Positions 1,006-21,612 of a DNA stretch of 61,071 nt are shown here, piece by piece. Origin of the DNA: a virus (taxonomy: Duplodnaviria; Heunggongvirae; Uroviricota; Caudoviricetes); the IMG/VR virus record IMGVR_UViG_2778261463_000006, positions 1 to 61,071 of that record. One strand, written 5' to 3'. How positions within the stretch are numbered: position 1 is the stretch's first letter; each line of letters opens with the position of its first letter. The notes below the pieces were generated by a model. It saw nothing but the letters and a program-made list of their open reading frames with translations. It had not been told where the DNA came from and did no database searches. The position numbers and the translations under genes were made by a program.

Positions 1006-2921
1006 GCCGCTACCCCCGCTTTCTGGATTGCTACCAACAGATCAGCCAGGTGGCGAGCTGCGCCGTTAACCAGCTCTTCGTTTTCCTCAAAACGTCCGGC
1101 AGCCTGAAGGGCTGCAATCGCTTCCCGGACATTGCCCCGGGCGTTACGGATCTCCGCCATGTCAGTGCTTTGTATATCCATCACGTTATTGAGATATTCA
1201 ATGGCTTTATTAGCCTCTGCATCTGCTTCGCTAACCGTTTCATCAGGCTGTGCCGTGGCCGGTTCTGACTGAGTAATCTCACCGACTTCGGCCTGCAATG
1301 CATTGATCATGCTCTGCACCATTTTCTCGGTGCCAGCGCCCCCAGGAAACGCAATATTGGGGAAAGTTTTTTGAAACTGAGTTTTCAGCATTACGCGGAA
1401 CTCGTCTGGTGAGCTGGTGGCCAGCTCCAGAGCTTTTTGTGCATATTTGCCAAACGGACCATTAGTAAGTGTCTTCGCCAGGAAGTCGAAAGAATCCTCG
1501 CGAGGCAATAACTTCAGGTCGTACTCACTCATTTGCTGATCAGAAAGCGGGGTATCGTAAGTAGCAATGCCGTAGCGTGCATATTCATAATACGGGTCAC
1601 CTTCATCAGGGCGCGGCAGAATTGCTTTGTTACCTTCAGGTATTGCGCCAGGGGCCGCCGGACGCATTTGCAGGGCATATCGATATGCACCTACAGAGAC
1701 TTCTGGTTCAGGCGAAGAGCTACCGGTATCCTCCGCTGGTTCAGGTTCGACGTTTTCCGGTTTATGTTCTTCTGGTTGGACCAGGTATTCCGATACATTA
1801 CCCGCTTTATAGGCTTTAAACAGCTTGCCGATCGCATCTGCCATGTCCACACCCTGTATGGATTTAGCCTTGATCATGTATACGCTGCCATCCGGATCGG
1901 TTAACTGGATATACCCTTCGCCGCCCCCAATGAATTGCTTCATTGATGCACCATTACTGAGCGTCACTTCCCCGTCCATATGCATACGATTTTTGATACT
2001 GGCAAGGCGATCCGTCAGCGCGCGAGAGTGCCCACCAGTCATCCCCGCTGGAGCAATGGTATCGCGCCCACCAGTGCGATTGAGCTGTTCAATCTCCGTC
2101 TGCAAACGCTCATTCTCTTCATAAAGAGAATCCGCTTCCGATGCAACAGCGTTAATTTTCTGCTCCAGATCTGCCTTCTGCCCTTCTACCGCTGCCACCT
2201 GATCCGCGAGGTCGCTCATGGCATCCTCTTTCTGGTCACTGTCAGCCTGTAGTTGGGTTATTTCATCAACAAGGGCTTTTTTCTTCTTCTGCGCACGCTG
2301 GAATTTTGCCGAGTTTTTCTCTGCAAGGTTGGCAAGTTTCATGGTGACCTGCGCCAGCGTCATATCACGTCCACTCATCGGAGCAACGGTGTGAGTAACG
2401 TCTTTTTTATTCAGTAAGAACTGGAAAGCAACCAGCGTATCGCTATTGGTGATCCGGTTTTCCGCTGTCGGGCTATGAAACAGAATGCTGATAGTCTGAC
2501 CATCACTGAGCGGAATAATGGCTGGCAAGACCGGCAGCCCGTTAACGTTACGTGCCCGGCCAATTTCAGCGCCGCCGATCGCGCGCGCGCCGCTCTGGGC
2601 CACATCCCCCGTTTTATCACTCCCCGCAGAGATTCCGGTACCATTCAGCTTCTGGTTCAATGCCCGGACAAATGCCTGCATGGTCCGGTGTAACTGCAAA
2701 CGAGTAGAACTAATCGCCTCCAGTAAATCCGTAGCACACCAGTGGATCGGCGTGTCATAGAAGAACGTAGCCTCGATTTCCTCCAGGGTGTTGGATTCCG
2801 TCATCAGATAGCGGTCCTCACCGGCCATTAATGCGCGATATTCATCATCAGTCACTGGCGGGGGAAGCACGTCAAGCCCAGGCTTGATCGTCACCCCTTT
2901 ATTGATATTGAACTGTTCCAT
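1002..2921 (-). CDS. darA: DarA-like defence-against-restriction / capsid internal protein (639 aa)
   Basis: 639-aa ORF with coiled-coil-rich centre; shares motif NSAKFQ with upstream Hdf; position after lydA/lydB/hdf as in P1. Confidence 0.7.
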   Translation of the reverse strand: MEQFNINKGVTIKPGLDVLPPPVTDDEYRALMAGEDRYLMTESNTLEEIEATFFYDTPIHWCATDLLEAISSTRLQLHRTMQAFVRALNQKLNGTGISAGSDKTGDVAQSGARAIGGAEIGRARNVNGLPVLPAIIPLSDGQTISILFHSPTAENRITNSDTLVAFQFLLNKKDVTHTVAPMSGRDMTLAQVTMKLANLAEKNSAKFQRAQKKKKALVDEITQLQADSDQKEDAMSDLADQVAAVEGQKADLEQKINAVASEADSLYEENERLQTEIEQLNRTGGRDTIAPAGMTGGHSRALTDRLASIKNRMHMDGEVTLSNGASMKQFIGGGEGYIQLTDPDGSVYMIKAKSIQGVDMADAIGKLFKAYKAGNVSEYLVQPEEHKPENVEPEPAEDTGSSSPEPEVSVGAYRYALQMRPAAPGAIPEGNKAILPRPDEGDPYYEYARYGIATYDTPLSDQQMSEYDLKLLPREDSFDFLAKTLTNGPFGKYAQKALELATSSPDEFRVMLKTQFQKTFPNIAFPGGAGTEKMVQSMINALQAEVGEITQSEPATAQPDETVSEADAEANKAIEYLNNVMDIQSTDMAEIRNARGNVREAIAALQAAGRFEENEELVNGAARHLADLLVAIQKAGVAA

Positions 2922-2922
2922 G

Positions 2923-3534
2923 TTAATTTCCTGCTTTCAGTTGCTTAAGACGACGTTTGAGTTCGCCATTCCGTGCCTTTTCGTTATTGAGTCGGCCCGT
3001 CTCCTTATCCAGCTTCGCCCGCAAATCAGTGATCTGCTGTTGATTGAAAGACACCGAATTCTGCGCGGACTTATAAGCGGCAACCACCTGAGCATTCCGC
3101 TGTTTTGCTTCTTGCAGGCGCTGAAAGTTGGATTTAACTGCCGGTTTCTTGTCTACCGGATTGGCAACACGCTTCGCTTTGGCGATCAGTGATTTCTGGA
3201 ATTTTGCGGAGTTTTTACGGGCCGCCTGTCCCATGACGGTACCAAGCGTCTTGATATCCGGCGATTGAGCGTTAGGAATAGCTTTTCCATTCAGCCTCAC
3301 AGACGATATATCGCCAGTATCGTTTACCTGTATGGCAAGAATTTGTCCGTCGTTAAGAACCAGCTTTGCGGTTTTAACTTTAACGCCATCTTTCGTTGTT
3401 GCGCGGTTGCTTGAGTCAACCTCAATTACCGTAACACTGGTTTTATTGATCGCCGCGATAAGGGATTTCAGCCCCTTTTCATTAACCTGGTCAAAATCGA
3501 CCGTTGCATACTTATTTTTCGTCATCTGACACAT
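2923..3534 (-). CDS. hdf: Hdf (homolog of DarA fragment)
   Basis: 203 aa; segment AARKNSAKFQKS matches DarA segment AEKNSAKFQRAQ; lies directly upstream of darA. Confidence 0.65.
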   Translation of the reverse strand: MCQMTKNKYATVDFDQVNEKGLKSLIAAINKTSVTVIEVDSSNRATTKDGVKVKTAKLVLNDGQILAIQVNDTGDISSVRLNGKAIPNAQSPDIKTLGTVMGQAARKNSAKFQKSLIAKAKRVANPVDKKPAVKSNFQRLQEAKQRNAQVVAAYKSAQNSVSFNQQQITDLRAKLDKETGRLNNEKARNGELKRRLKQLKAGN

Positions 3535-3955
3535 CCTGTGCGAGATTTATTACGTAACTTCTGCGGATTTGCTGAGTAACAGGGAAAATCCGATACAACG
3601 GGTTAATGAACGAGTCGCCATGCGTAACCATGACGTTGAAATGCCACAGCCGTTCTCCTTTACCCATATATTCAGTGGGTATGTACAACCATTCACTGTT
3701 TTCGCCCTGTTCAGCCGACGTCAGACAACGTTGTTCGCCTTCAATCACTGTCGTCGGCTTCTGAACATCGCGGATCCAATATCTGACCGTTGCGCCGCGC
3801 AAAAACGGGAATTTAGACCGGTATTTGAACGGCACCCGGATGAAACCCGGTTTAATTTCCACATCACCAAGTTCTAAATGCGTGATGTCCTTGCGTTTTA
3901 GCAAATAGCGATCGGCTAAGGCTAACGCAAGAACGCATACACCCCAGCCAATCAT
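3512..3955 (-). CDS. lydB: LydB-like antiholin candidate (147 aa)
   Basis: ORF between holin-like gene and hdf; N-terminal hydrophobic segment; assignment by P1 synteny only. Confidence 0.45.
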   Translation of the reverse strand: MIGWGVCVLALALADRYLLKRKDITHLELGDVEIKPGFIRVPFKYRSKFPFLRGATVRYWIRDVQKPTTVIEGEQRCLTSAEQGENSEWLYIPTEYMGKGERLWHFNVMVTHGDSFINPLYRIFPVTQQIRRSYVINLAQDVSDDEK

Positions 3956-11813: not shown

Positions 11814-12169
11814 AGCACCACGTCCTGTGTGATAGTTATGTCCCTGATACGAATGGATATTTTCAACTTATCAAAAGCATCTCCCTCGGCTACTGACAAG
11901 CCAGAAATCGGTATGTCAGGTAAATCTACCGTCAGTTTTTGCAACAGCATTGCCTCAACCGCAATTTGAACATGCGACAAGTTGGTCGGTTCGTGTTTAA
12001 ACTGCGGTAAAACATTGCCCCAAGACGGATCTCCGTATACCTCACCCTGATAAGTGTTTAGCCACTCATATAAACGAGCGCCCCAGGCCTCCTCCTGGGA
12101 CTCATACGTTTTTACGCCGGATAACTCCAGCGTCAGTAAAGGATCAATTTCATTATTGTTGGCCATCAA
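11810..12169 (-). CDS. gp25-like baseplate wedge protein (PmgA-like, 119 aa)
   Basis: Size and sequence character of GPW/gp25 family; sits immediately downstream of sit. Confidence 0.5.
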   Translation of the reverse strand: MMANNNEIDPLLTLELSGVKTYESQEEAWGARLYEWLNTYQGEVYGDPSWGNVLPQFKHEPTNLSHVQIAVEAMLLQKLTVDLPDIPISGLSVAEGDAFDKLKISIRIRDITITQDVVL

Positions 12170-15100
12170 TCAACTCTCGCGTAGTCATTCATCAACGGAT
12201 CATCAATTGACAGTGGTACCGTGCGCATAACGCCCGGCTGAGGCGTGCTGACCTTTACGACAGTTCCCTGGCCTTTCGCCGAGTCTTTGGTGTGCTCTTC
12301 AATCCTGGCAAGCAATGAGGTCATCTGCGCAAACAGCCGCTTCGTTTCACCATCAAGTGAAACGGTATTATCAGCCAACTGCATTGTCGGCTTGGCACCG
12401 GAACCGCCAAGGTCACTAATAACCTGCCCGTCTATCTGCATACGACCGGTTGGTTGCTGCAAATCGTTGGCGGCAGTCGTCACCTGGGACGTGGAGGCTG
12501 GTTCAGGCGCATTATTTTTCCGCATCCCCGGCGAGTTGCGGAGTTTATCGAATAGTCCATCAATCCCCATTTGTGCGCCGAGATGGTCAAAGTAACTTGA
12601 GTTGTTGGCCACCGGACGCGCCTCTTCAACTGGCATCGGGGTATCAACATACACATTGCCAGCTGCTGTTGCGGTCCCCTTCCCTCGTGCACGTTCTTCG
12701 AGCGTTCCCTGAACGACTTCCCGACGCATCCCCCGGCCATTCATGAATTTGTTGACCAGATCGTTAACGCCAACAGCATTGCCAATTTTGTCTACCAGAC
12801 CGCCTTTCTCAAACGGGCTATCACCAGGGGTAAACGCCAGGCCAGTAGACTGATCGATAACAGCGTTATCAGGCAGTGGTCCCCTCACTCCATATTGCGC
12901 CCCACCCTGTGCTCCTGCTCCAGGTGTATAGATTTCACCACCTAAATAGCGAGCACGATGAGTATTGACCTTGATCGCGTACTCACGGTTTTCTTTCGAT
13001 AAGTCACCTGTGCCTTTTTTCCACTTATTGATAGTGCCAAACCCAGCATTATATGCAGTGATGGCCTCGTTTAAGTCTCCATTGGCTTGCTTCAGATATT
13101 TGCTCATGAGAAGAGCCGCAGCTTCTGCCGATTTCACAGGATCAAACGATTCACCTTCAGCTAAGCCAGTCTCTTCACGAGCAATCCCCGTGAACTGAAA
13201 CATCCCCAGAGCACCGGTTTGGGATTTTGCATACGGATTACCACCAGATTCAGTTGCAGCAATCGCGTAAAGAGTGCCTTCTGGAAGACCGTATTTATTC
13301 TCTAGTTCGGCAAAATACGGAGCCAACTTATCGAGATTTGCCTTGCCTTCAGCGCCAAGACTTCCGACTTTTACATCCAAGTTGCCATTGTTGTAGGTAT
13401 CCGCAGCTTTCTGAATGTCATTCCTGGTGCCAGTGGTATTAAACGACGATGATGACGAGCTATTTTGACCAATAGCTTTATCAATTTTCTGCAACGCGCT
13501 ATTGCCCGTTTCTACGGCATTTGCATTGATAATCTGATTGGCAGTTTGTTTTACTGTTTTATTGCTATCTTTCGCCGTGTCAAGTGCCGCATTTATCACG
13601 CGGGTAGCAATATTACTCTGTTTGGCATCGGATTCAGTTTTAGAATTAGACGTCTCCTGGTGGCTATTAACCGGAGCTTTTAACTCTGGAGTGATTTCTT
13701 TCGCATTAGCCTCGCCGATTGGATTGGGTATTTTTGATACAATCATTGCCGCAGGGGTATTTTTAACGGCATCAACCGCTGCATCTAATGCTTTACCTGG
13801 TAAATTTTTAACCCCATCCCAAATATTACCAGCCGCCTCTTTAATGTGTTTCCCAGGGTTCTTAATGAAATCAATTGCACTATCAATTGCATCACTGAAA
13901 ACCTGTTTCAGGTTATCGACAGTAAAGAAGTCTTTGATGGCATCCAGCTTTTCAAGCAGCTTATTAGATGTATCGCTAAACCATGCTGAAACAGCATCAC
14001 CAATCTTTGCTGTGTAATCATCGAACTTGGTAGAAATGGTGTCGCCAAGGTTAGCAATATATGTTTCTAAGTTGGTAATCCCACTATCAATGGCCTGGGC
14101 AATACTTTCCGTCGAAAATGATTGCAACATATTGCCGATATCCTCAAATCCAAGTGATTTGAGAACCTCACCAATGGCGCTGCTAATACCAGATACCAGT
14201 CCCCCCATATCAAGAACATTAGCTAACGTATAAGCGGCTTTTTGCTGGAATGATGGATCTTGTCCTGATTTAAGCCCAAACGCTCGACGTTGCGCTTCTG
14301 TATCATTCCAACCGGTTACCGCATCATAAATACCTCCAGCCACTGTGCCGACTAGGGGAATTGCGCGTAACGCCCCTTTACCAACTGCCTTTAATCCAAG
14401 TTTACCTGCTGCCCGGGCAGCCAAATCTCCGCCTTCATGGGCGAGAGTCTTCTTGCCACCACCGCGTAGCATTCCTACAAGTTTCTTTGCCCCCAGAGCG
14501 CCAAAAGCGAGTGCTCCAGCTTTTTTCAGCATGCCACGCCCCATTAACAACGACGCGACGCCACCGGCCCCCTTCCCTAACAGGCTAAATAGTTTGGACA
14601 GCAAGCCGCCCTTCTTTTTCCCGGTGTTTTTGGCTATCTGATCAAGGGCGCTGAGAATCTTGTCATTGCCCTCTTTAATTTCGCTGGTCTGCTCCTGAAG
14701 TTCCTGAACCGTCCGTTTTTGGGTGTTAACCTGAACGACATCGGCACTATTTTGCGATTTACGCCTAAAAAAACCTTTTCTACGGCTGTTATCGTCATTG
14801 CCACGAATCACATCGGCAATAGACTTTCTGGCACCATTAAGCGATCCACCAACTTCTTTTGATATCCCGCCAAGCTCCTTCCCTGCTGCCCACAATGGAC
14901 CAGCAACGGCATAACCTAACGCATCGACGGCACGAGTTTCTGAAGGGTTACCTATGCCTTCAGCTACTTTTGACAGTTTTTTTAATAAACCTGATTCAGC
15001 ATTTAGACGCTCATCATCCTCTTTGCGCCTGGCCTTTTCAGCACGTTCAGCACGGGCATCTTCCGCTGCGGCCTTACTCCCTGACTTTCCAATAAAACGA

Positions 15101-15558
15101 CCACGCGCATCGCGTTGGTTTTGGCTTTTTTGCGCACCGCCTTTTTGACCGAACATTTCGCGAGCGTGTTCAGCTGCTTCGGTTCGTTGCGCCTTTACAT
15201 CTTCTGTTATAGCCTTCTTGCGTCGTTTTTTACCCTTTCGCGTAGTTGATTTGGCCTGCGGTTCCTGTAGAGCAACATCCTCCTGAACTACACGAGAAAC
15301 GTCCCCTAAATTAAGCCGTTTCATTGCCTCAACAATAGGGTCCACTGATGGCGCATTGGCCACAAAGTCTGGCCGGGAATTTTCGATTGTGCGATTTAAT
15401 GCCGACACACTGCGAGAGACAGGATCAACAGTTGCAACGCGCCCCCCTTTCAAATCTTCAACAGCTTCCCGGATACCAGCAAGCTCTTCCAGCTCTTTTG
15501 CGCTGGCGGTTTCAACTGTCCTTATAACATCGTCAATGTTGGCGTTTTTTCTTTCCAT
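12166..15558 (-). CDS. sit: Sit-like structural injection transglycosylase / tape-measure-like protein (1130 aa)
   Basis: Soluble lytic transglycosylase motif ...AIAATESGGNPYAKSQTGALGMFQF...; Gly/Lys-rich and coiled-coil regions; size matches P1 Sit. Confidence 0.8.
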   Translation of the reverse strand: MERKNANIDDVIRTVETASAKELEELAGIREAVEDLKGGRVATVDPVSRSVSALNRTIENSRPDFVANAPSVDPIVEAMKRLNLGDVSRVVQEDVALQEPQAKSTTRKGKKRRKKAITEDVKAQRTEAAEHAREMFGQKGGAQKSQNQRDARGRFIGKSGSKAAAEDARAERAEKARRKEDDERLNAESGLLKKLSKVAEGIGNPSETRAVDALGYAVAGPLWAAGKELGGISKEVGGSLNGARKSIADVIRGNDDNSRRKGFFRRKSQNSADVVQVNTQKRTVQELQEQTSEIKEGNDKILSALDQIAKNTGKKKGGLLSKLFSLLGKGAGGVASLLMGRGMLKKAGALAFGALGAKKLVGMLRGGGKKTLAHEGGDLAARAAGKLGLKAVGKGALRAIPLVGTVAGGIYDAVTGWNDTEAQRRAFGLKSGQDPSFQQKAAYTLANVLDMGGLVSGISSAIGEVLKSLGFEDIGNMLQSFSTESIAQAIDSGITNLETYIANLGDTISTKFDDYTAKIGDAVSAWFSDTSNKLLEKLDAIKDFFTVDNLKQVFSDAIDSAIDFIKNPGKHIKEAAGNIWDGVKNLPGKALDAAVDAVKNTPAAMIVSKIPNPIGEANAKEITPELKAPVNSHQETSNSKTESDAKQSNIATRVINAALDTAKDSNKTVKQTANQIINANAVETGNSALQKIDKAIGQNSSSSSSFNTTGTRNDIQKAADTYNNGNLDVKVGSLGAEGKANLDKLAPYFAELENKYGLPEGTLYAIAATESGGNPYAKSQTGALGMFQFTGIAREETGLAEGESFDPVKSAEAAALLMSKYLKQANGDLNEAITAYNAGFGTINKWKKGTGDLSKENREYAIKVNTHRARYLGGEIYTPGAGAQGGAQYGVRGPLPDNAVIDQSTGLAFTPGDSPFEKGGLVDKIGNAVGVNDLVNKFMNGRGMRREVVQGTLEERARGKGTATAAGNVYVDTPMPVEEARPVANNSSYFDHLGAQMGIDGLFDKLRNSPGMRKNNAPEPASTSQVTTAANDLQQPTGRMQIDGQVISDLGGSGAKPTMQLADNTVSLDGETKRLFAQMTSLLARIEEHTKDSAKGQGTVVKVSTPQPGVMRTVPLSIDDPLMNDYARVD

Positions 15559-16535: not shown

Positions 16536-17147
16536 TCAAAGAGAAAAACTAAAGCCCAGAAGGGAAGCCAAAGAACTTGAAGATTGGTTAAACGTGCTGT
16601 GCAATGCGAAGGTCATTGGGAATGACTTAAATTCCGTAACCTGATCCCGCGCATAGGTGACATCGCCGGTAGTGACCGGAAATACAGTCATCTCATTTTC
16701 CAGTTTGGTTAAGCCGGAAGACAGCAACCGATAAATACGCACATTGAGCAAATATTTAGACGGTATATTCCCAGTACCGTCCGGATTGATCACCCGACTT
16801 TTTGCCGTCTTAAACCAGTCCAAAACGAGGCCATCAACGGTATCCCTGACCATCATTGTTATCTGCCCAGGCGAACGCTCCGTTGGTTGAAGGATATTCC
16901 CTCCGCCGATTTTAATCGTTTCATATTCGATGCTGTAATCGTGGTAGGTAATATCTTTGGCAAAGAAGTCTGCCCCCTCCAGTCCATCAACTTCGACAGA
17001 GAACTGCCATCCTTGCGCGAACAACATTTTGTTCATGATGATTGACGTCAGCTTACCAACTTCCCGCTCACCAACGCCGGAGCCAAATAATGTCGTCGTT
17101 AATGCCGAAGATACATAAGACTTTACTGAAGCAACATTAAGCCCCAT
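16536..17147 (-). CDS. Tail-associated structural protein (203 aa)
   Basis: ORF in tail block; no recognisable motif. Confidence 0.45.
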   Translation of the reverse strand: MGLNVASVKSYVSSALTTTLFGSGVGEREVGKLTSIIMNKMLFAQGWQFSVEVDGLEGADFFAKDITYHDYSIEYETIKIGGGNILQPTERSPGQITMMVRDTVDGLVLDWFKTAKSRVINPDGTGNIPSKYLLNVRIYRLLSSGLTKLENEMTVFPVTTGDVTYARDQVTEFKSFPMTFALHSTFNQSSSSLASLLGFSFSL

Positions 17148-17157
17148 ATCAGCCCCC

Positions 17158-17748
<591 letters not shown>

Positions 17749-17782
17749 TTAACCGATTCTACGAGTAGTCATTTGTGACAGG

Positions 17783-18259
17783 TTATTTTGCGCGCTTCAG
17801 GCAGCCATCTTCAGGTGCCGCGTTGAAAAGCTCTGCGGCCTTACGTAGCGTAAATGTTGCGATTTTTTTTCCGTCTACGTATGCATCGAATGTTTTAACT
17901 TCCATATCAGGGGTATCTGACCAAAAACCATACCAGTAACTATCACCCACAGAGGAACCGATAGAACTGATAGGATATTCATCATCACCAACTTTCAGCG
18001 TTATTTGTTCTTTTTTAGCATCAAATGACTCACCGCCAGGTTCTGTTTTCATGAGAGTGAGTAGTCGTGTTCCTACTTGATTGGGATCCGTATTATTAAA
18101 TCCAACATCGCACTCAAATGTAAGCGTATAATTATCTTTGCTGGAAACAGCATAAGAACGAACACCATGAGTCTCGCCGGTTGACCATTTGCTTACATTT
18201 GCCATTGATGAAAATGGAGTAAGCAAAGCAAGAATTAGAAAAAATCGTTTGATGCGCAT
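17783..18259 (-). CDS. Secreted/periplasmic protein (158 aa) with N-terminal signal peptide
   Basis: MRIKRFFLILALLTPFSSMA signal-like N-terminus. Confidence 0.55.
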   Translation of the reverse strand: MRIKRFFLILALLTPFSSMANVSKWSTGETHGVRSYAVSSKDNYTLTFECDVGFNNTDPNQVGTRLLTLMKTEPGGESFDAKKEQITLKVGDDEYPISSIGSSVGDSYWYGFWSDTPDMEVKTFDAYVDGKKIATFTLRKAAELFNAAPEDGCLKRAK

Positions 18260-18310
18260 TAATTTATCTCCTTTGGATATTAATATTTTAATTAGTTAAC
18301 CACCATATAT

Positions 18311-18958
18311 TCACCATTCATAGGGTAAATTAAGCGCTTTTAAACCTTGCTGGAAAGTATTAAGAGAGCCGTTTTTTTGTTGTTCCATTTTTTCGCGTGC
18401 AGCTTTCTCATACTGCTCCATCCGTTGGTTATACTCTTGCAATTCCTCCGGGGAGAGGTTTCCCATTGGGGAGTTTGTACCCGGCCCCCTGGCCCGTTCT
18501 TCAAGCGTACCCTGAACGTTTTGATGGCGCATTCCCGGGGCGTTTCTGATTGAATCAATGCCATTTCTTCCAACGTCTTCTTTATTAACGGCATTGCTCG
18601 CCACCAGTACGCCCCAGCTAGGGATAGCAAAATCAGGAGCGGTTTCGCATGCCTTTACCATATAATCGAAAGAGCTTCGATTGATCTCGTTTGCGTCGGG
18701 ATTTAATAGGCGAGAATATTGATATTTAGCATTTTCGTTGGTTGCGACTTTATACAGTTCTTGCTGCACCATCGCTTCAGAAAGTTTAAGGCGTTTCATA
18801 TCTGATAGTAACTTCTTGCGCATGGATTCGTCTTGACTGACAGCAAAACCGTAAACGTGCCCAAGGTATTTCGTATAATCGGTACAAATCTCCTTTACGC
18901 TTGATGCTGCATTAACAGTCCCAGCCATAAATAATAACGGTAGTAATAGTTTTCTCAT
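18311..18958 (-). CDS. Secreted protein, candidate Sim-like superinfection-exclusion protein (about 215 aa from MRKLLL start)
   Basis: Signal peptide MRKLLLPLLFMAGTVNAAS; C-terminal segment GMRHQNVQGTLEERARGPGT matches Sit segment GMRREVVQGTLEERARGKGT; located beside immI region. Confidence 0.55.
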   Translation of the reverse strand: MRKLLLPLLFMAGTVNAASSVKEICTDYTKYLGHVYGFAVSQDESMRKKLLSDMKRLKLSEAMVQQELYKVATNENAKYQYSRLLNPDANEINRSSFDYMVKACETAPDFAIPSWGVLVASNAVNKEDVGRNGIDSIRNAPGMRHQNVQGTLEERARGPGTNSPMGNLSPEELQEYNQRMEQYEKAAREKMEQQKNGSLNTFQQGLKALNLPYEW

Positions 18959-19054
18959 TATAACCTCACCTGCCTTATAACTCATTTAGGGTACATATTT
19001 TCGCCTTTAAAAAAAAGAGGTTATTAGATCCAACTGTGTATTTATTAAGCATAT

Positions 19055-19071
19055 AATGCTCTAATAAATTT
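19055..19071 (+). promoter_or_regulatory. C1 repressor operator-like site upstream of c4-icd-ant (Op51-like)
   Basis: AATGCTCTAATAAATTT, 16/17 match to recalled P1 C1 operator consensus ATTGCTCTAATAAATTT. Confidence 0.6.
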
Positions 19072-19239
19072 GTATTTTTAAGTCGCGAATGCTATCTTTT
19101 CGCATCATATTGACCTTTTAATCGTTCAGGCTTATAGTTCCGCCGTCGTAGCAAATTCTGCGACCGGGTTTAGCAGCCTGAATGATTGTGCGGACAGCCG
19201 CAGATATCCGATATTGCGGTATTTTTGTGTCCGTAAAAC

Positions 19240-19330
19240 CGCGTTACGCCCAAATTATGGTGGGGCGTGATGGGGAGGCTTCGGCCTGCTGGTTTCACAA
19301 TCGCCAGTCTGCTAACCCCGTCACGTCCTG
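19240..19330 (+). ncRNA. c4: c4-like antisense RNA of immunity region immI (boundaries approximate)
   Basis: Contains cacaatc (19296-19302) and ctgctaa (19309-19315), complementary to direct repeats gtttagcagc/tgattgtg at 19168-19190 and 19337-19374; the latter abuts the icd Shine-Dalgarno. Confidence 0.45.
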
Positions 19331-19385
19331 CCACCTGTTTAGCAGCGGGTAGCAGGTTGTTAAACCTGATTGTGAGGCCGTAACT

Positions 19386-19607
19386 ATGGTTAATGCCAAT
19401 CCTTGCGCACGCCAAGAATTCATCTGGCGTTTCTATTCCTGTAAAAAACACCACTATCACTTCGTTATCGCAGCAACAGAAGACGAAGCACGCTCTCAAT
19501 TGCCTGATGGCCCCTGCATTTTTACTGCCCGTTTTTCAACTAACTCGCGCAATTCACTTAGTTACTGGAACCTCCCCTTCTCTGCCGACGTTCAGGGGGG
19601 TTTATGA
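19386..19607 (+). CDS. icd: Icd-like small protein (73 aa) translationally coupled to ant
   Basis: 73-aa ORF whose stop overlaps ant start (ATGA); target repeats of c4 cover its RBS. Confidence 0.6.
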   Translation: MVNANPCARQEFIWRFYSCKKHHYHFVIAATEDEARSQLPDGPCIFTARFSTNSRNSLSYWNLPFSADVQGGL

Positions 19608-20647
19608 AAAAACCTCTCGTCACCCGTAATGACATAGCCGAAGCGATCGCCCTGCATACTGCCTGTATGTCGACACGGGAGATCCCCGGCGCAATTGCCA
19701 ACTATTTCATGATAACCAGACGTTTTTATACCCGAACAGATAAGGCTGTGATCAACAAGCTACTGATAGCCGAGATCAGGGATTATTTGATTGAACAAGG
19801 ACGTCTACGTTACGCAACAGTGGCAGCAGAAATGAGAAAGGAGGCACATAGAATGACCGGTAATAATTTAAATGTTGAAAAACCAGCACCTGTTGCTTCA
19901 GCTACGCCAGCACCAGCCGTGAATATCATCCCCAACACCGGAGACACAATCGACAGCCTGACACTGTTAAAGATGGTCAATGAAGCGCGTAAGTTATGTG
20001 GGGAACCAGAGGTTCGGAACAACAAATTCATCGAAAAAATACTCGACGAATTAGAAGGTGAGGACGGTTACACAAAAAGTGCAACCGTGCCGCCAGGTGG
20101 CGGTACGCCTATGGTTGTCATAACCATGACCTACAAACAAGCCCTGCGAGTCGCCGCACGCGAATCAAAAGCCGTCCGCCGTTCGCTGATCGACAAACTG
20201 GAAGAATTGCAGCAGGCAAACTCCCCTGCCCCATCGATCCCCCAAACATTACCAGAAGCTCTACGCCTGGCTGCCGAGTTGGCAGAACAGAAAATGCAGC
20301 TGGAACAACAGCTGGTGGCCGCAGCCCCTAAAGTCGATTTTGCCGACCGGGTATCAGTGGCCAATGGAATCCTGATCGGGAACTTTGCAAAGGTCGTTGG
20401 ACTTAAGCAAAACGCCCTTTTCTCATGGTTGCGCCAGAACGGCATTCTCATGGCTTTTGGTGCGCGCAAAAACGTACCGCGCCAGCAGTACATTAACGCC
20501 GGGTATTTCACGGTGAAAGAAGTGGTGCTGGATGATGAAAATGGCTACCAGATACGGCTGACGCCCCAATTAACGGGTAAAGGCCAGCAGTGGTTAACTC
20601 GCAAGCTACTTGATGCTGGTTTGTTAAAACCAGTAGCAATAGGTTAA
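19604..20647 (+). CDS. ant: Antirepressor Ant (347 aa) with KilA-C/ANT-type C-terminal domain
   Basis: C-terminal ~150 aa paralogous to KilA C-terminus (LPEALRLAAELAEQK...TGKGQQWL...LLDAG). Confidence 0.75.
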   Translation: MKKPLVTRNDIAEAIALHTACMSTREIPGAIANYFMITRRFYTRTDKAVINKLLIAEIRDYLIEQGRLRYATVAAEMRKEAHRMTGNNLNVEKPAPVASATPAPAVNIIPNTGDTIDSLTLLKMVNEARKLCGEPEVRNNKFIEKILDELEGEDGYTKSATVPPGGGTPMVVITMTYKQALRVAARESKAVRRSLIDKLEELQQANSPAPSIPQTLPEALRLAAELAEQKMQLEQQLVAAAPKVDFADRVSVANGILIGNFAKVVGLKQNALFSWLRQNGILMAFGARKNVPRQQYINAGYFTVKEVVLDDENGYQIRLTPQLTGKGQQWLTRKLLDAGLLKPVAIG

Positions 20648-20660
20648 CAAAAGAAAAAAA

Positions 20661-20686
20661 CCTGCCAGCAAACTGGCAGGTTTCTG
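20661..20686 (+). terminator. Rho-independent terminator after ant
   Basis: cctgccagca-aactggcagg hairpin followed by TTTCT; A-run before it. Confidence 0.65.
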
Positions 20687-20725
20687 AGCAGATCGACCAA
20701 CCCGATCTGGATCGAGTTAGAAAAA

Positions 20726-20742
20726 TTTGCTCTAATAAATTT
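20726..20742 (+). promoter_or_regulatory. C1 operator-like site upstream of kilA (Op53-like)
   Basis: TTTGCTCTAATAAATTT, 16/17 to consensus. Confidence 0.65.
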
Positions 20743-20811
20743 CGTTTTCTAAGTGCAAAGAATCACCATTTCGAGCTGGTGATTGAAGGTTGATGCAAAT
20801 TTGGAGAAAAA

Positions 20812-21612
20812 ATGCAACAAACATTCAATGCGGATATGAATATATCAAACCTTCATCAAAATGTCGATCCTTCAACCACTCTGCCCGTTATTTGTGGTGT
20901 TGAAATTACGACCGACCGCGCTGGCCGTTACAACCTTAATGCTCTACACAGAGCGAGCGGACTCGGTGCCCATAAAGCGCCAGCTCAATGGCTAAGAACG
21001 CTGTCAGCTAAACAGCTCATCGAAGAGCTTGAAAAAGAAACTATGCAGAATTGCATAGTTTCGTTCGAAGGCCGTGGCGGCGGCACTTTTGCCCATGAAT
21101 TGCTCGCAGTGGAGTACGCTGGTTGGATTTCTCCCGCGTTTCGGCTGAAGGTAAACCAGACATTTATCGACTATCGAGCCGGAAGATTACAACCTGCTAT
21201 TCCGCAGAGTCTCCCTGAAGCTCTCCGTTTGGCTGCCGACCTGGCAGAGCAAAAGCAACGGCTGGAACAAAAAATGCTTATGGATGCACCTAAAGTCGAA
21301 TTCGCCGAACGCGTTGCTACCGCCAGCGGGGTTCTAATCGGCAACTATGCCAAAGTGCTCGGTCTGGGCCAAAACTATCTCTTCACCTGGTTGCGTGATA
21401 ACGGAATTCTGATCGCAACCGGTGAACGCAGGAACGTCCCCAAACAAGAATACATATCCCGTGGGTATTTCACCCTTAAAGAAACCGTGATCGATACAAG
21501 CAATGGAAGCAGGATTTCTTTCACGACTCGTATAACCGGCAAAGGTCAGCAGTGGCTGATGAAGCGATTGCTTGATGCTGGTGTGCTGGTACCTGTCGCG
21601 GCAACGCGCTAA
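20812..21612 (+). CDS. kilA: KilA (KilA-N domain plus antirepressor-like C-terminal domain)
   Basis: N-terminal KilA-N-like segment RYNLNALHRASGLGAHKAPAQWLR; C-terminus paralogous to Ant. Confidence 0.75.
   Translation: MQQTFNADMNISNLHQNVDPSTTLPVICGVEITTDRAGRYNLNALHRASGLGAHKAPAQWLRTLSAKQLIEELEKETMQNCIVSFEGRGGGTFAHELLAVEYAGWISPAFRLKVNQTFIDYRAGRLQPAIPQSLPEALRLAADLAEQKQRLEQKMLMDAPKVEFAERVATASGVLIGNYAKVLGLGQNYLFTWLRDNGILIATGERRNVPKQEYISRGYFTLKETVIDTSNGSRISFTTRITGKGQQWLMKRLLDAGVLVPVAATR

What the first reader, a model, noticed from the sequence alone, without database searches (positions are those of the whole stretch)
18311..18958. Secreted protein carries a 20-aa motif shared with the injected Sit transglycosylase
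The signal-peptide protein at 18311-18958 contains GMRHQNVQGTLEERARGPGT, matching GMRREVVQGTLEERARGKGT in Sit (about 12643-12738, minus strand) at 16/20 residues; Sit has a second weaker copy (NSPGMRKNNAP). The DNA is diverged, so this is conserved protein sequence rather than a recent duplication. A periplasmic protein mimicking a segment of the injected Sit protein is a plausible mechanism for superinfection exclusion of incoming P1-like phages. The gene sits beside the immI region where P1 sim maps, but I cannot confirm it is the Sim ortholog.
Basis: partly seen in the sequence, partly recalled or inferred. Interest (0 to 1): 0.6.

Follow-up and report, generated by a model that had tools for sequence, protein, structure and literature searches.

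The report
Secreted phage protein copies tape-measure motif
A P1-like phage-plasmid encodes an exported protein, the full-length form of the gene that survives in phage P1 only as the stub simA, and it carries a conserved short peptide motif otherwise found only in the phage's injected tape-measure protein Sit, which suggests, without proving, that it blocks infection by related phages by imitating that protein.

Summary
The 215-aa signal-peptide protein (18311-18958, minus strand) shares 16/20 residues (23/47 in BLASTP, E=7e-9; shuffle p about 3e-7) with Sit residues 943-962. Sit also has the weaker second copy.

The gene is not the Sim (SimC) orthologue. It is the full-length form of simA: P1's 52-aa SimA is its N-terminal stub, and P1's simB/simC cassette replaced the rest.

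The full-length gene plus a YfjT-like secreted neighbour is the commonest occupant of the pmgC-c4 slot (125 PLSDB plasmids, all annotated 'hypothetical').

- **Conservation:** the motif core N-x-x-G-M-R-H-Q is kept in every family member (pN/pS about 0.2 with synonymous sites saturated).
- **In tape-measure proteins:** it is kept in all P1-like Sit proteins and, often twice, in relatives only about 30% identical.
- **Structure:** it lies in segments predicted to be disordered in both proteins.
- **Specificity:** it occurs nowhere else in a complete 99.6-kb plasmid. A search of 1.84 billion representatives with the Sit tail found only Sit-like proteins.

Superinfection exclusion by mimicry of a tape-measure linear motif is the best-supported reading, but it is inferred. 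The binding partner is unknown and no phenotype exists. Moderately interesting: a new variant of a known kind.

The parts
18311..18958 (-). Full-length simA-family gene (215 aa; PHROG 3933, function unknown). Predicted exported protein. Alternative upstream ATG at 18985.
   Evidence: ORF and translation. Shine-Dalgarno AGGTGAGG lies before the 18958 ATG. phrog_3933 E=4e-137. P1 SimA equals its N-terminal stub.
18908..18958 (-). Sec-type signal peptide MRKLLLPLLFMAGTVNA, with predicted cleavage before ASS.
   Evidence: Sequence. N16, A17 and S19 are invariant in 20 homologues. Inferred, not tested.
18569..18907 (-). Conserved all-helical N-terminal domain (aa 18-130) with two invariant cysteines (C25, C104).
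   Evidence: AF2 pLDDT is above 90 over aa 20-130. Invariant columns. pN/pS 0.21. No fold match in PDB or BFVD.
18461..18544 (-). Tape-measure-like linear motif NAPGMRHQNVQGTLEERARGPGTNSPMG (aa 139-166), in a segment predicted to be disordered.
   Evidence: BLASTP. Coordinates. pLDDT below 50 for aa 138-168. Core conserved in all family members.
18311..18451 (-). Variable C-terminal module. Here it is a helix (aa 170-208) ending in LPYEW-COOH. Other lineages replace it with Cys-pair modules or lack it.
   Evidence: AF2 helices 170-196 and 199-208. Tail variants.
12166..15558 (-). sit: tape-measure protein with an SLT lytic transglycosylase domain (1130 aa).
   Evidence: ORF. Pfam SLT aa 748-857, E=9e-27. 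P1 annotation and literature PMC9024508.
12658..12741 (-). Sit copy of the motif, NGRGMRREVVQGTLEERARGKGTATAAG (aa 940-967). It lies in a conserved block downstream of the SLT domain.
   Evidence: Conserved in all P1-like Sit proteins examined. AF2 confidence is low there.
12505..12537 (-). Second, partial copy NSPGMRKNNAP (aa 1008-1018). It sits inside an insertion of about 50 aa specific to the E. coli P1 lineage.
   Evidence: The flanking GIDGLFDKLRNSPGMRK repeats GVNDLVNKFMNGRGMRR.
17783..18259 (-). Co-cassette gene: 158-aa signal-peptide protein, YfjT-like (PHROG 3429).
   Evidence: ORF. phrog_3429 E=1e-80. Homologues in related loci carry PF27224 YfjT. It accompanies full-length simA in 27 of 73 loci.
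17777..18818 (.). Exchangeable cassette relative to P1. The boundaries relative to P7 are 17782-19056.
   Evidence: blastn breakpoints against P1 and P7. Annotations of the three cassette types.
19253..19338 (+). C4 antisense RNA of immI (context marker). The a1/b1 target element is at 19132-19184.
   Evidence: Rfam RF01695 69.6 bits and RF03163 55.5 bits.

Best explanation
The gene encodes the intact SimA-family protein of P1-like phage-plasmids. It is a Sec-exported periplasmic protein made of a folded helical domain, a flexible linker and a variable C-terminal module.

The linker carries a short linear motif (core N-x-x-G-M-R-H-Q, here extended by V-Q-G-T-L-E-E-R-A-R-G-x-G-T). This is the same motif the tape-measure protein Sit displays, once or twice, in its flexible region downstream of the lytic transglycosylase domain. 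That part of Sit is expelled into the periplasm when the tail contracts.

The most likely function is superinfection exclusion. The resident protein presents a decoy copy of the Sit motif in the periplasm and occupies, or is recognised by, the partner the incoming Sit needs for wall and membrane passage and DNA entry. That partner is unknown; it could be a host envelope component or another ejected phage protein. Infection by P1-like phages would then abort after adsorption.

Shown here:
- the homology of the motif and its restriction to these two families;
- purifying selection on it;
- its predicted disorder;
- the predicted export signal;
- the location in the slot that holds the experimentally defined exclusion gene in P1.

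Inferred: periplasmic residence, the exclusion phenotype, competition as the mode of action and the existence of a common partner.
For: 1. The motif match is significant by four independent measures.

2. The core is kept in all 20 aligned family members. pN/pS is 0.19, against 0.21 for the folded domain, while pS is 0.74-0.94. Natural 163- and 179-aa variants end just after the motif and still retain it.

3. All P1-like Sit proteins keep the motif whatever occupies the sim slot. Tape-measure proteins only 29-38% identical keep x-[DE]-K-[LI]-x-x-A-[EP]-G-[ML]-R-H-Q, often in two copies, and P0048 also keeps GMRHQVSAGTLAAR. So it is an old functional element of the tape-measure protein, and SimA's NAPGMRHQ is closer to that consensus than P1 Sit's own copies.

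4. Both copies lie in low-confidence, probably disordered segments, with the same short helix at LEERAR. This is as expected of a partner-binding linear motif.

5. Specificity is high. There are only three occurrences in the window and the same three in a full 99.6-kb plasmid. The Sit tail found only 16 proteins among 1.84 billion representatives, all Sit-like or fragments.

6. Context supports an envelope role. The pmgC-c4 slot holds alternative cassettes that all encode exported envelope proteins: P1 SimB/SimC (SimC annotated as superimmunity) and P7 Upf50.0 plus a lipoprotein with weak TraT similarity.

7. There is precedent that exclusion proteins act on tape-measure proteins: T4 Imm binds the T4 tape-measure protein (bioRxiv 10.64898/2026.03.06.709160).
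Against: - No experimental phenotype exists for the full-length protein. In P1 the Sim phenotype is assigned to simC, which is unrelated.
- P1 itself tolerates a truncated simA.
- About half of the family has lost the extension after GMRHQ.
- There is no clear co-variation between a genome's SimA motif and its own Sit motif.
- No partner could be identified.
- The AF2 monomer models give no docking information.
- No second motif-bearing secreted protein was found next to distant motif-bearing tape-measure genes, so there is no independent recurrence.
- Expression in the lysogen was not established. Only a weak promoter was predicted by homology to P1's annotation.
Confidence: 0.4

Rival explanations
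1. A direct anti-Sit protein rather than a decoy. The periplasmic protein binds the incoming Sit itself. Either the motif is a self-association element, so SimA co-assembles with Sit as a poison subunit, or the helical N-domain inhibits the SLT transglycosylase in the way T4 Spackle inhibits gp5 lysozyme, with the motif helping to target it.
Confidence: 0.2
2. The motif reflects shared handling rather than exclusion. Both proteins pass through the periplasm unfolded, and the motif is a recognition site for a host periplasmic chaperone, protease or peptidoglycan. SimA then has some other envelope role, such as lysogenic conversion, together with the YfjT-like protein.
For: The motif is disordered in both proteins. 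SimA always travels with a second secreted protein of unknown function. From background knowledge, the HK97 tape-measure protein depends on the periplasmic chaperone FkpA (Cumby et al. 2015, recalled, not read here).
Against: A general chaperone or protease signal would be expected in many exported proteins, yet the motif is confined to these two families. The slot otherwise holds exclusion-type genes.
Confidence: 0.15
3. An evolutionary relic. A piece of sit was once copied into simA by illegitimate recombination and persists without a function of its own.
For: The C-terminal half of SimA is modular and often reshuffled or truncated. P1 has lost most of the gene.
Against: Synonymous sites are saturated, yet the core is as constrained as the folded domain, with pN/pS 0.19. 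The core survives in every tail variant and in the truncated forms. The two copies differ in 11 of 18 codons for identical residues.
Confidence: 0.08

Closest known systems
P1 SimA (52 aa, 'putative superimmunity accessory function', NC_005856 P1_gp043)
   Same: Same gene and the same promoter-proximal position next to the C1 operator Oc4 and immI. Residues 10-50 of P1 SimA are 93% identical to residues 1-41 here. Database names such as 'simA domain protein' for homologues reflect this.
   Different: P1's version is a stub cut at window position 18819 by the simB/simC cassette. It lacks nearly all of the helical domain, the motif and the tail. The full-length form is the commoner one: 27 of 73 sampled loci, against 12 of P1 type.
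P1 Sim (SimC), the processed periplasmic superinfection-exclusion protein of phage P1
   Same: Same slot between pmgC and c4 and the same strand. It also has a predicted signal peptide. Its role, blocking P1 after adsorption, is known from Kliem & Dreiseikelmann 1989 and Maillou & Dreiseikelmann 1990. Those papers are recalled, not read here.
   Different: There is no sequence similarity. SimC has no similarity to Sit or to any other phage protein. It belongs to a different PHROG, 14355.
Exclusion proteins that act on tape-measure proteins: T4 Imm and HK97 gp15
   Same: They block genome entry at the tape-measure step. Imm binds the T4 tape-measure protein directly. The HK97 gp15 / PtsG / tape-measure link is recalled from Cumby et al. 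2012 and 2015.
   Different: Those are integral inner-membrane proteins with no resemblance to their target. SimA is predicted to be soluble and periplasmic, and it carries a copy of a segment of the target.
T4 Spackle (Sp), periplasmic inhibitor of the tail lysozyme gp5
   Same: A small, secreted, mostly helical phage protein that stops superinfecting phage at the wall-penetration step. This is recalled background.
   Different: No fold or sequence match was found. Spackle does not mimic its target.
Sit-like tape-measure proteins with an SLT domain (PHROG 2533)
   Same: They share the linear motif of about 35 aa.
   Different: SimA has no SLT domain and no long helical ruler. It does have a signal peptide. 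It is not a member of this family.

Membership tests
SimA family (PHROG 3933) | Full-length match to the family profile | tested here: met
   phrog_3933 E=4.1e-137, covering residues 1-215 of the protein and 1-213 of the 213-position profile.
SimA family (PHROG 3933) | Orthology with P1 simA: the same N-terminus and the same position next to Oc4 and c4 | tested here: met
   93% identity over 41 aa. tblastn hits lie under the P1 simA annotation. Flanks are 95.5% identical from window 18819 onward.
P1 Sim (SimC) exclusion protein | Sequence homology to SimC | tested here: not met
   No BLASTP hit at E<1. Different PHROG.
P1 Sim (SimC) exclusion protein | Located in the pmgC-c4 slot and made with a cleavable signal peptide | tested here: met
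   Slot mapping. Signal peptide from sequence only.
P1 Sim (SimC) exclusion protein | Excludes P1 after adsorption when expressed | not testable with these tools
   Needs plating and adsorption assays.
Sit / SLT tape-measure proteins (PHROG 2533) | SLT catalytic domain and a long helical ruler | tested here: not met
   No SLT hit in Pfam. Only aa 129-171 match the 1130-position profile.
T4 Spackle-like periplasmic lysozyme inhibitors | Fold similarity to Spackle | tested here: not met
Membrane-embedded tape-measure-targeting exclusion proteins (T4 Imm, HK97 gp15) | Integral inner-membrane protein with transmembrane helices | tested here: not met
   The only hydrophobic stretch is the N-terminal signal peptide. 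The rest is a polar helical domain plus a disordered linker.
PTP-like phytase (Pfam PF14566) | Score above the gathering threshold and the catalytic C-x5-R loop | tested here: not met
   26.4 bits against a cut-off of 27, covering profile positions 47-132 of 158 only. C104 is followed by ETAPDF, with no Arg at +6. Homologues from other genera carry no such hit.
Known anti-phage defence systems (PADLOC) | Match to any PADLOC model | tested here: not met
   No family matched SimA, the YfjT-like protein, SimC or SimB.

The most novel reading that the evidence does not exclude
A prophage-encoded periplasmic decoy carries a short linear motif copied from the tape-measure protein and blocks genome injection of related phages by competitive mimicry. 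The same motif would mark the so far unknown periplasmic or inner-membrane docking step of P1-type tape-measure proteins, giving a direct handle (a peptide bait) on the host or phage factor needed for P1 DNA entry.
Probability: 0.3. Interest if true: 0.8.

Novelty: new variant of a known kind. Interest (0 to 1): 0.55.

Why it matters
Phage P1 is a workhorse of E. coli genetics, and P1-like phage-plasmids are common carriers of resistance genes. How Sit gets the genome across the envelope is unknown, and Sit is unresolved in the cryo-EM maps (PMC12810830).

If the reading is right, three things follow.

1. The most common cargo of the P1 'sim' slot, annotated 'hypothetical' in 125 plasmids, would gain a function.
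2. P1's simA would be understood as a gene remnant, which tidies the annotation of a reference genome.
3. Exclusion by mimicry of a linear motif from the injected protein would be a mechanism not described for the known exclusion proteins. Those either mask receptors, inhibit the tail lysozyme or bind the tape-measure protein from within the membrane.

The conserved GMRHQ motif also gives a concrete mutational target and peptide bait for finding the partner of the tape-measure protein.

Tried and rejected
- **Sim orthology.** SimC shows no similarity to this protein, so this was rejected.
- **Recent duplication or gene conversion.** Rejected: DNA identity is 64% and 11 of 18 codons for identical residues differ.
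- **Common or low-complexity motif.** Rejected.
- **Profile search with the 50-aa motif alignment.** Searching the 5.8-billion-protein index returned only four fragments of Sit and SimA. The word index is not suited to such short queries.
- **PTP-like phytase.** A sub-threshold Pfam hit with no catalytic motif, so rejected.
- **Auto-inhibitory docking of the Sit motif on its SLT domain.** AF2 of Sit 730-1130 gives a confident SLT domain but pLDDT below 50 for everything after it, so there is no support either way.
- **Co-variation of SimA and Sit motifs within genomes.** In L006 and L010 the cognate Sit is the best or joint-best match, but not in the window or in L004. This is inconclusive.
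- **Mimicry by the other tail modules or other slot occupants.** There is no similarity to any other phage protein.
- **Recurrence in other lineages.** No second motif-bearing ORF was found within 10 kb of distant motif-bearing tape-measure genes. The IMG/VR scan for AEGMRHQ found only that tape-measure lineage, one unrelated tape-measure-like ORF and out-of-frame chance hits.
- **Defence-system databases and NCBIfam.** No hits.
- **Literature.** Papers on P1-like elements list simABC as a variable region, but no paper found in these searches describes the full-length gene or the Sit motif. Lobocka et al. 2004 is not held.

Full report
**What the window is**

The region around the finding is a P1-like phage-plasmid (genus Punavirus). 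Positions 17000-21000 match Escherichia phage vB_EcoM-Ro157c2YLVW at 97.7% over the full length. They match P1 and P7 only in two or three blocks, because the middle differs.

The gene order is the same as in P1: sit, pmgB, tub and pmgC on the minus strand, then a variable slot, then immI (c4, icd, ant) on the plus strand. Rfam finds the C4 antisense RNA at 19253-19338 and its a1/b1 target element at 19132-19184. The cassette 17783-18818 is 100% identical to E. coli plasmid p50EVA-2, NZ_CP138414.1.

**Checking the observation**

The ORF 18311-18958 (minus strand) encodes 215 aa. An in-frame ATG at 18985 would add nine residues, but a strong Shine-Dalgarno sequence (AGGTGAGG) sits just before the 18958 ATG. 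The first 17 residues, MRKLLLPLLFMAGTVNA, followed by ASS, form a standard Sec signal peptide. The cleavage region is invariant in homologues.

The match is well beyond chance:
- BLASTP extends it to 23/47 identities with E=7e-9.
- A shuffle test gives a Smith-Waterman score of 101 against 40.1 +/- 5.5 (maximum 70 in 1000 shuffles), Gumbel p about 3e-7.
- tblastn of the protein against all six frames of the complete 99.6-kb sister plasmid finds Sit as the only non-self hit, E=3e-7.
- The PHROG profile of the Sit family independently matches aa 129-171, E=8e-8.

The weaker second copy in Sit (NSPGMRKNNAP, aa 1008-1018) is also there.

At the DNA level the 28-codon block is 64% identical, and 11 of the 18 identical residues are encoded by different codons. 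So this is conserved protein sequence, not a recent copy.

**What the gene is**

It is not the orthologue of the P1 exclusion determinant. P1 SimC (264 aa) and SimB show no similarity to it.

P1 SimA does match. It is a 52-aa ORF annotated as a putative accessory function, and it is 93% identical to the first 41 residues of the window protein before ending.

DNA comparison places the breakpoints. The window and P1 are collinear up to 17776 and again from 18819, which is codon 47 of the gene. The window and P7 are collinear up to 17781 and from 19057.

P1's simA is therefore the 5' stub of this gene, left when the simB/simC cassette replaced the rest. The window carries the intact form. Database names such as 'simA domain protein' for homologues agree with this.

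The slot holds at least three alternative cassettes, and all of them encode exported envelope proteins:

| Element | Slot content |
|---|---|
| This window | Full-length SimA plus a 158-aa YfjT-like signal-peptide protein |
| P1 | SimA stub plus SimB and SimC |
| P7 | Upf50.0 (DUF5384) plus a lipoprotein with weak TraT similarity |

I sampled 73 P1-like loci from IMG/VR through Sit homology. Of these, 27 carry full-length SimA with the YfjT-like gene, 14 carry the P7 type and 12 carry the P1 type. In PLSDB, 125 plasmids carry the cassette, always annotated as two hypothetical proteins.

**Anatomy of the family**

Only 28 clusters of homologues exist in a 5.8-billion-protein collection. Where context is visible, they lie on contigs of about 90 kb. 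The seven lineages whose genomic context was retrieved all have P1-like gene order.

The members share an N-terminal domain of about 115 residues. AF2 predicts it as an all-helical domain with pLDDT above 90, and it has two invariant cysteines.

After it comes a segment with pLDDT below 50 (aa 138-168) that contains the motif, and then a variable C-terminal module. In the window the module is a helix ending in LPYEW. Other lineages have one or two Cys-pair modules, or nothing.

Every member keeps N-[AS]-[PR]-G-M-R-[HQ]-Q. Roughly half also keep the extension V-x-G-[TS]-L-x-x-R-A-x-G-x-G, and some keep it further (GTNSPMGNLSP). Natural variants of 163 and 179 aa end just after the motif.

With synonymous sites saturated (pS 0.74-0.94), selection on each part is as follows:

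| Segment | pN/pS |
|---|---|
| Folded N-domain | 0.21 |
| Ten-codon core | 0.19 |
| Extension, among the lineages that keep it | 0.45 |

**The motif on the Sit side**

All P1-like Sit proteins examined keep the motif, whatever sits in the sim slot. It forms the end of a conserved block that starts about 70 residues downstream of the SLT domain.

In most lineages Sit reads KFMNSRGMRHEVVQGTLAERAYGKGTTTSMGNVSP. Compared with these, the resemblance to SimA runs for about 35 residues.

The second partial copy in this window lies in an insertion of about 50 residues peculiar to the E. coli P1 lineage. It looks like a duplication of the first half of the block.

I searched 1.84 billion representative proteins with Sit 870-1130 using full HMMER. 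This found only 16 proteins at E<=0.001, all Sit-like tape-measure proteins or fragments of them.

The distant ones, 29-38% identical, still carry x-[DE]-K-[LI]-x-x-A-[EP]-G-[ML]-R-H-Q, often twice. One of them reads GMRHQVSAGTLAAR.

The motif is therefore an old, specific feature of this tape-measure family. SimA's NAPGMRHQ is closer to the family consensus than P1 Sit's own two copies.

AF2 of Sit 730-1130 gives a confident SLT domain, but pLDDT is below 50 for everything after residue 875, including the motif. Both models place the same short helix on LEERAR. Cryo-EM work on P1 could not resolve Sit (PMC12810830). Proteomics and bioinformatics identify it as the tape-measure protein with a C-terminal muralytic domain (PMC9024508).

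**Specificity**

A loose pattern for the motif occurs three times in all ORFs of the window: twice in Sit and once in SimA. In the complete plasmid p50EVA-2 the same three sites are the only matches to the stricter pattern.

None of the other slot occupants (SimB, SimC, the P7 proteins, the YfjT-like protein) resembles any other phage protein, and nor do the other SimA tail modules.

**How it most likely works**

The tape-measure protein of a contractile phage is expelled from the tail tube on contraction. Its SLT domain must act in the periplasm, so the flexible region after the SLT domain is exposed there.

A short, conserved, disordered and sometimes duplicated peptide in that region is best read as a docking motif for a partner. 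A resident, exported protein that shows the same peptide on a flexible linker would compete for that partner, or be recognised by it. This fits the role of the slot, which in P1 holds the exclusion gene.

I therefore favour superinfection exclusion by motif mimicry, with confidence of about 0.4. The export signal, the motif homology, the constraint on it and the genomic context are shown. The periplasmic residence, the phenotype, the competition and the partner are inferred.

Precedent exists for exclusion proteins acting on tape-measure proteins. T4 Imm binds the T4 tape-measure protein and prevents genome translocation (bioRxiv 10.64898/2026.03.06.709160). Imm, however, is a membrane protein and does not resemble its target.

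**Rival readings**

- The motif could be a shared handling signal for a periplasmic chaperone or protease. Its confinement to two families argues against this.
- The motif could be a relic without function. The level of constraint argues against this.

**Weak points**

- There is no phenotype.
- P1 lives with a truncated simA.
- Half of the family has shed the extension.
- Within-genome co-variation of the two motifs is inconclusive.
- No independent recurrence was found near distant tape-measure genes or in an IMG/VR scan for AEGMRHQ.

**Comparison with what is known, and novelty**

The gene is a member of the SimA family (PHROG 3933, function unknown). It is the intact counterpart of P1 simA. 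It is not a member of the SimC, Sit, Spackle, Imm/gp15, PTP-like phytase or PADLOC families.

Papers on P1-like elements treat simABC only as a variable region (PMC9603915, PMC6799933). I found no description of the full-length gene or of the shared motif.

I rate it a new variant of a known kind. Periplasmic phage exclusion proteins are known, and so is exclusion at the tape-measure step. A secreted protein that carries a copy of the tape-measure protein's own linear motif has not been described.

Interest is 0.55. The finding is solid and specific, gives a cheap and decisive experiment and corrects the reading of a reference-genome gene. The mechanism is still a hypothesis.

Noticed in passing
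window 18819-18958; L001 (P1 NC_005856) 3561-3719: P1's annotated simA (52 aa) is a truncated remnant of a 215-aa gene. The P1 simB/simC cassette begins at codon 47. The P1 reference annotation, 'putative superimmunity accessory function', describes a stub.
   Followed up: yes
window 17783-18259 (-): A 158-aa signal-peptide protein (PHROG 3429; homologues carry Pfam PF27224 YfjT). In the lineages examined it follows full-length simA. It may act with simA. It has no similarity to Sit or to any other phage protein.
   Followed up: partly
window 18311-18334 (-): The protein ends in LPYEW-COOH, an aromatic-x-aromatic C-terminus like that of outer-membrane beta-barrel proteins. From background knowledge, such C-termini are what the DegS PDZ domain and the Bam machinery recognise. 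The Salmonella lineage in L004 has the same ending. Whether this matters is unknown.
   Followed up: no
window 12505-12657 (-), Sit aa 968-1018: The second, partial motif copy sits in an insertion of about 50 aa found only in the E. coli P1 lineage of Sit. GIDGLFDKLRNSPGMRK repeats GVNDLVNKFMNGRGMRR, so it looks like a partial internal duplication. Distant tape-measure proteins (P0046, P0048) also carry two copies.
   Followed up: partly
L034-L046, L081 (gene at 10001-10492 in L034): A frequent natural variant of the gene ends at ...ERARGPGVAP, directly after the motif (163 aa; a cluster of 153 sequences). It is followed by a different YfjT-like gene and an extra 357-aa ORF.
   Followed up: partly
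P0002, P0004, P0005, P0007, P0008, P0016, P0017, P0021: Several database versions of the protein are frameshifted in or after the motif. Nearly all are singletons from automated read-archive assemblies, so they are probably assembly errors rather than real pseudogenes.
   Followed up: no
L003 (P7 NC_050152) 2849-3370 (-): The lipoprotein Upf50.5 in P7's version of the slot has sub-threshold similarity to TraT, the F-plasmid surface-exclusion lipoprotein (E=7e-5, 23 bits against a cut-off of 31). It also has a glycine-zipper region. RefSeq calls it 'DNA methyltransferase', which looks wrong.
   Followed up: no
window 12169-12480 (-), Sit aa 1027-1130: A second strongly conserved block lies at the extreme C-terminus of Sit (ISDLGGSGAKPTMQLADNTV...VSTPQPGV...DPLMNDYARVD). 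It is kept even in the 38%-identical relative P0035. AF2 confidence is low there. Its function is unknown.
   Followed up: no
window 18605-18859 (-), aa 34-118: A Pfam PTP-like phytase hit lies just under the gathering threshold (26.4 against 27 bits). It is also precomputed for the E. coli-type homologues only. There is no catalytic C-x5-R, so it is most likely spurious.
   Followed up: partly
window 19055-19071 (+): AATGCTCTAATAAATTT corresponds to P1's C1 operator Oc4 and lies about 100 bp upstream of the simA start, in the divergent promoter region. The gene could therefore be under C1 control. This was not examined.
   Followed up: no
L085 (IMGVR_UViG_2871745582_000001): A distant P1-like element, with Sit only 38% identical, keeps the full Sit motif. 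It has no immI/sim slot between the tail genes and pmgC, and no SimA-like gene within 10 kb.
   Followed up: partly
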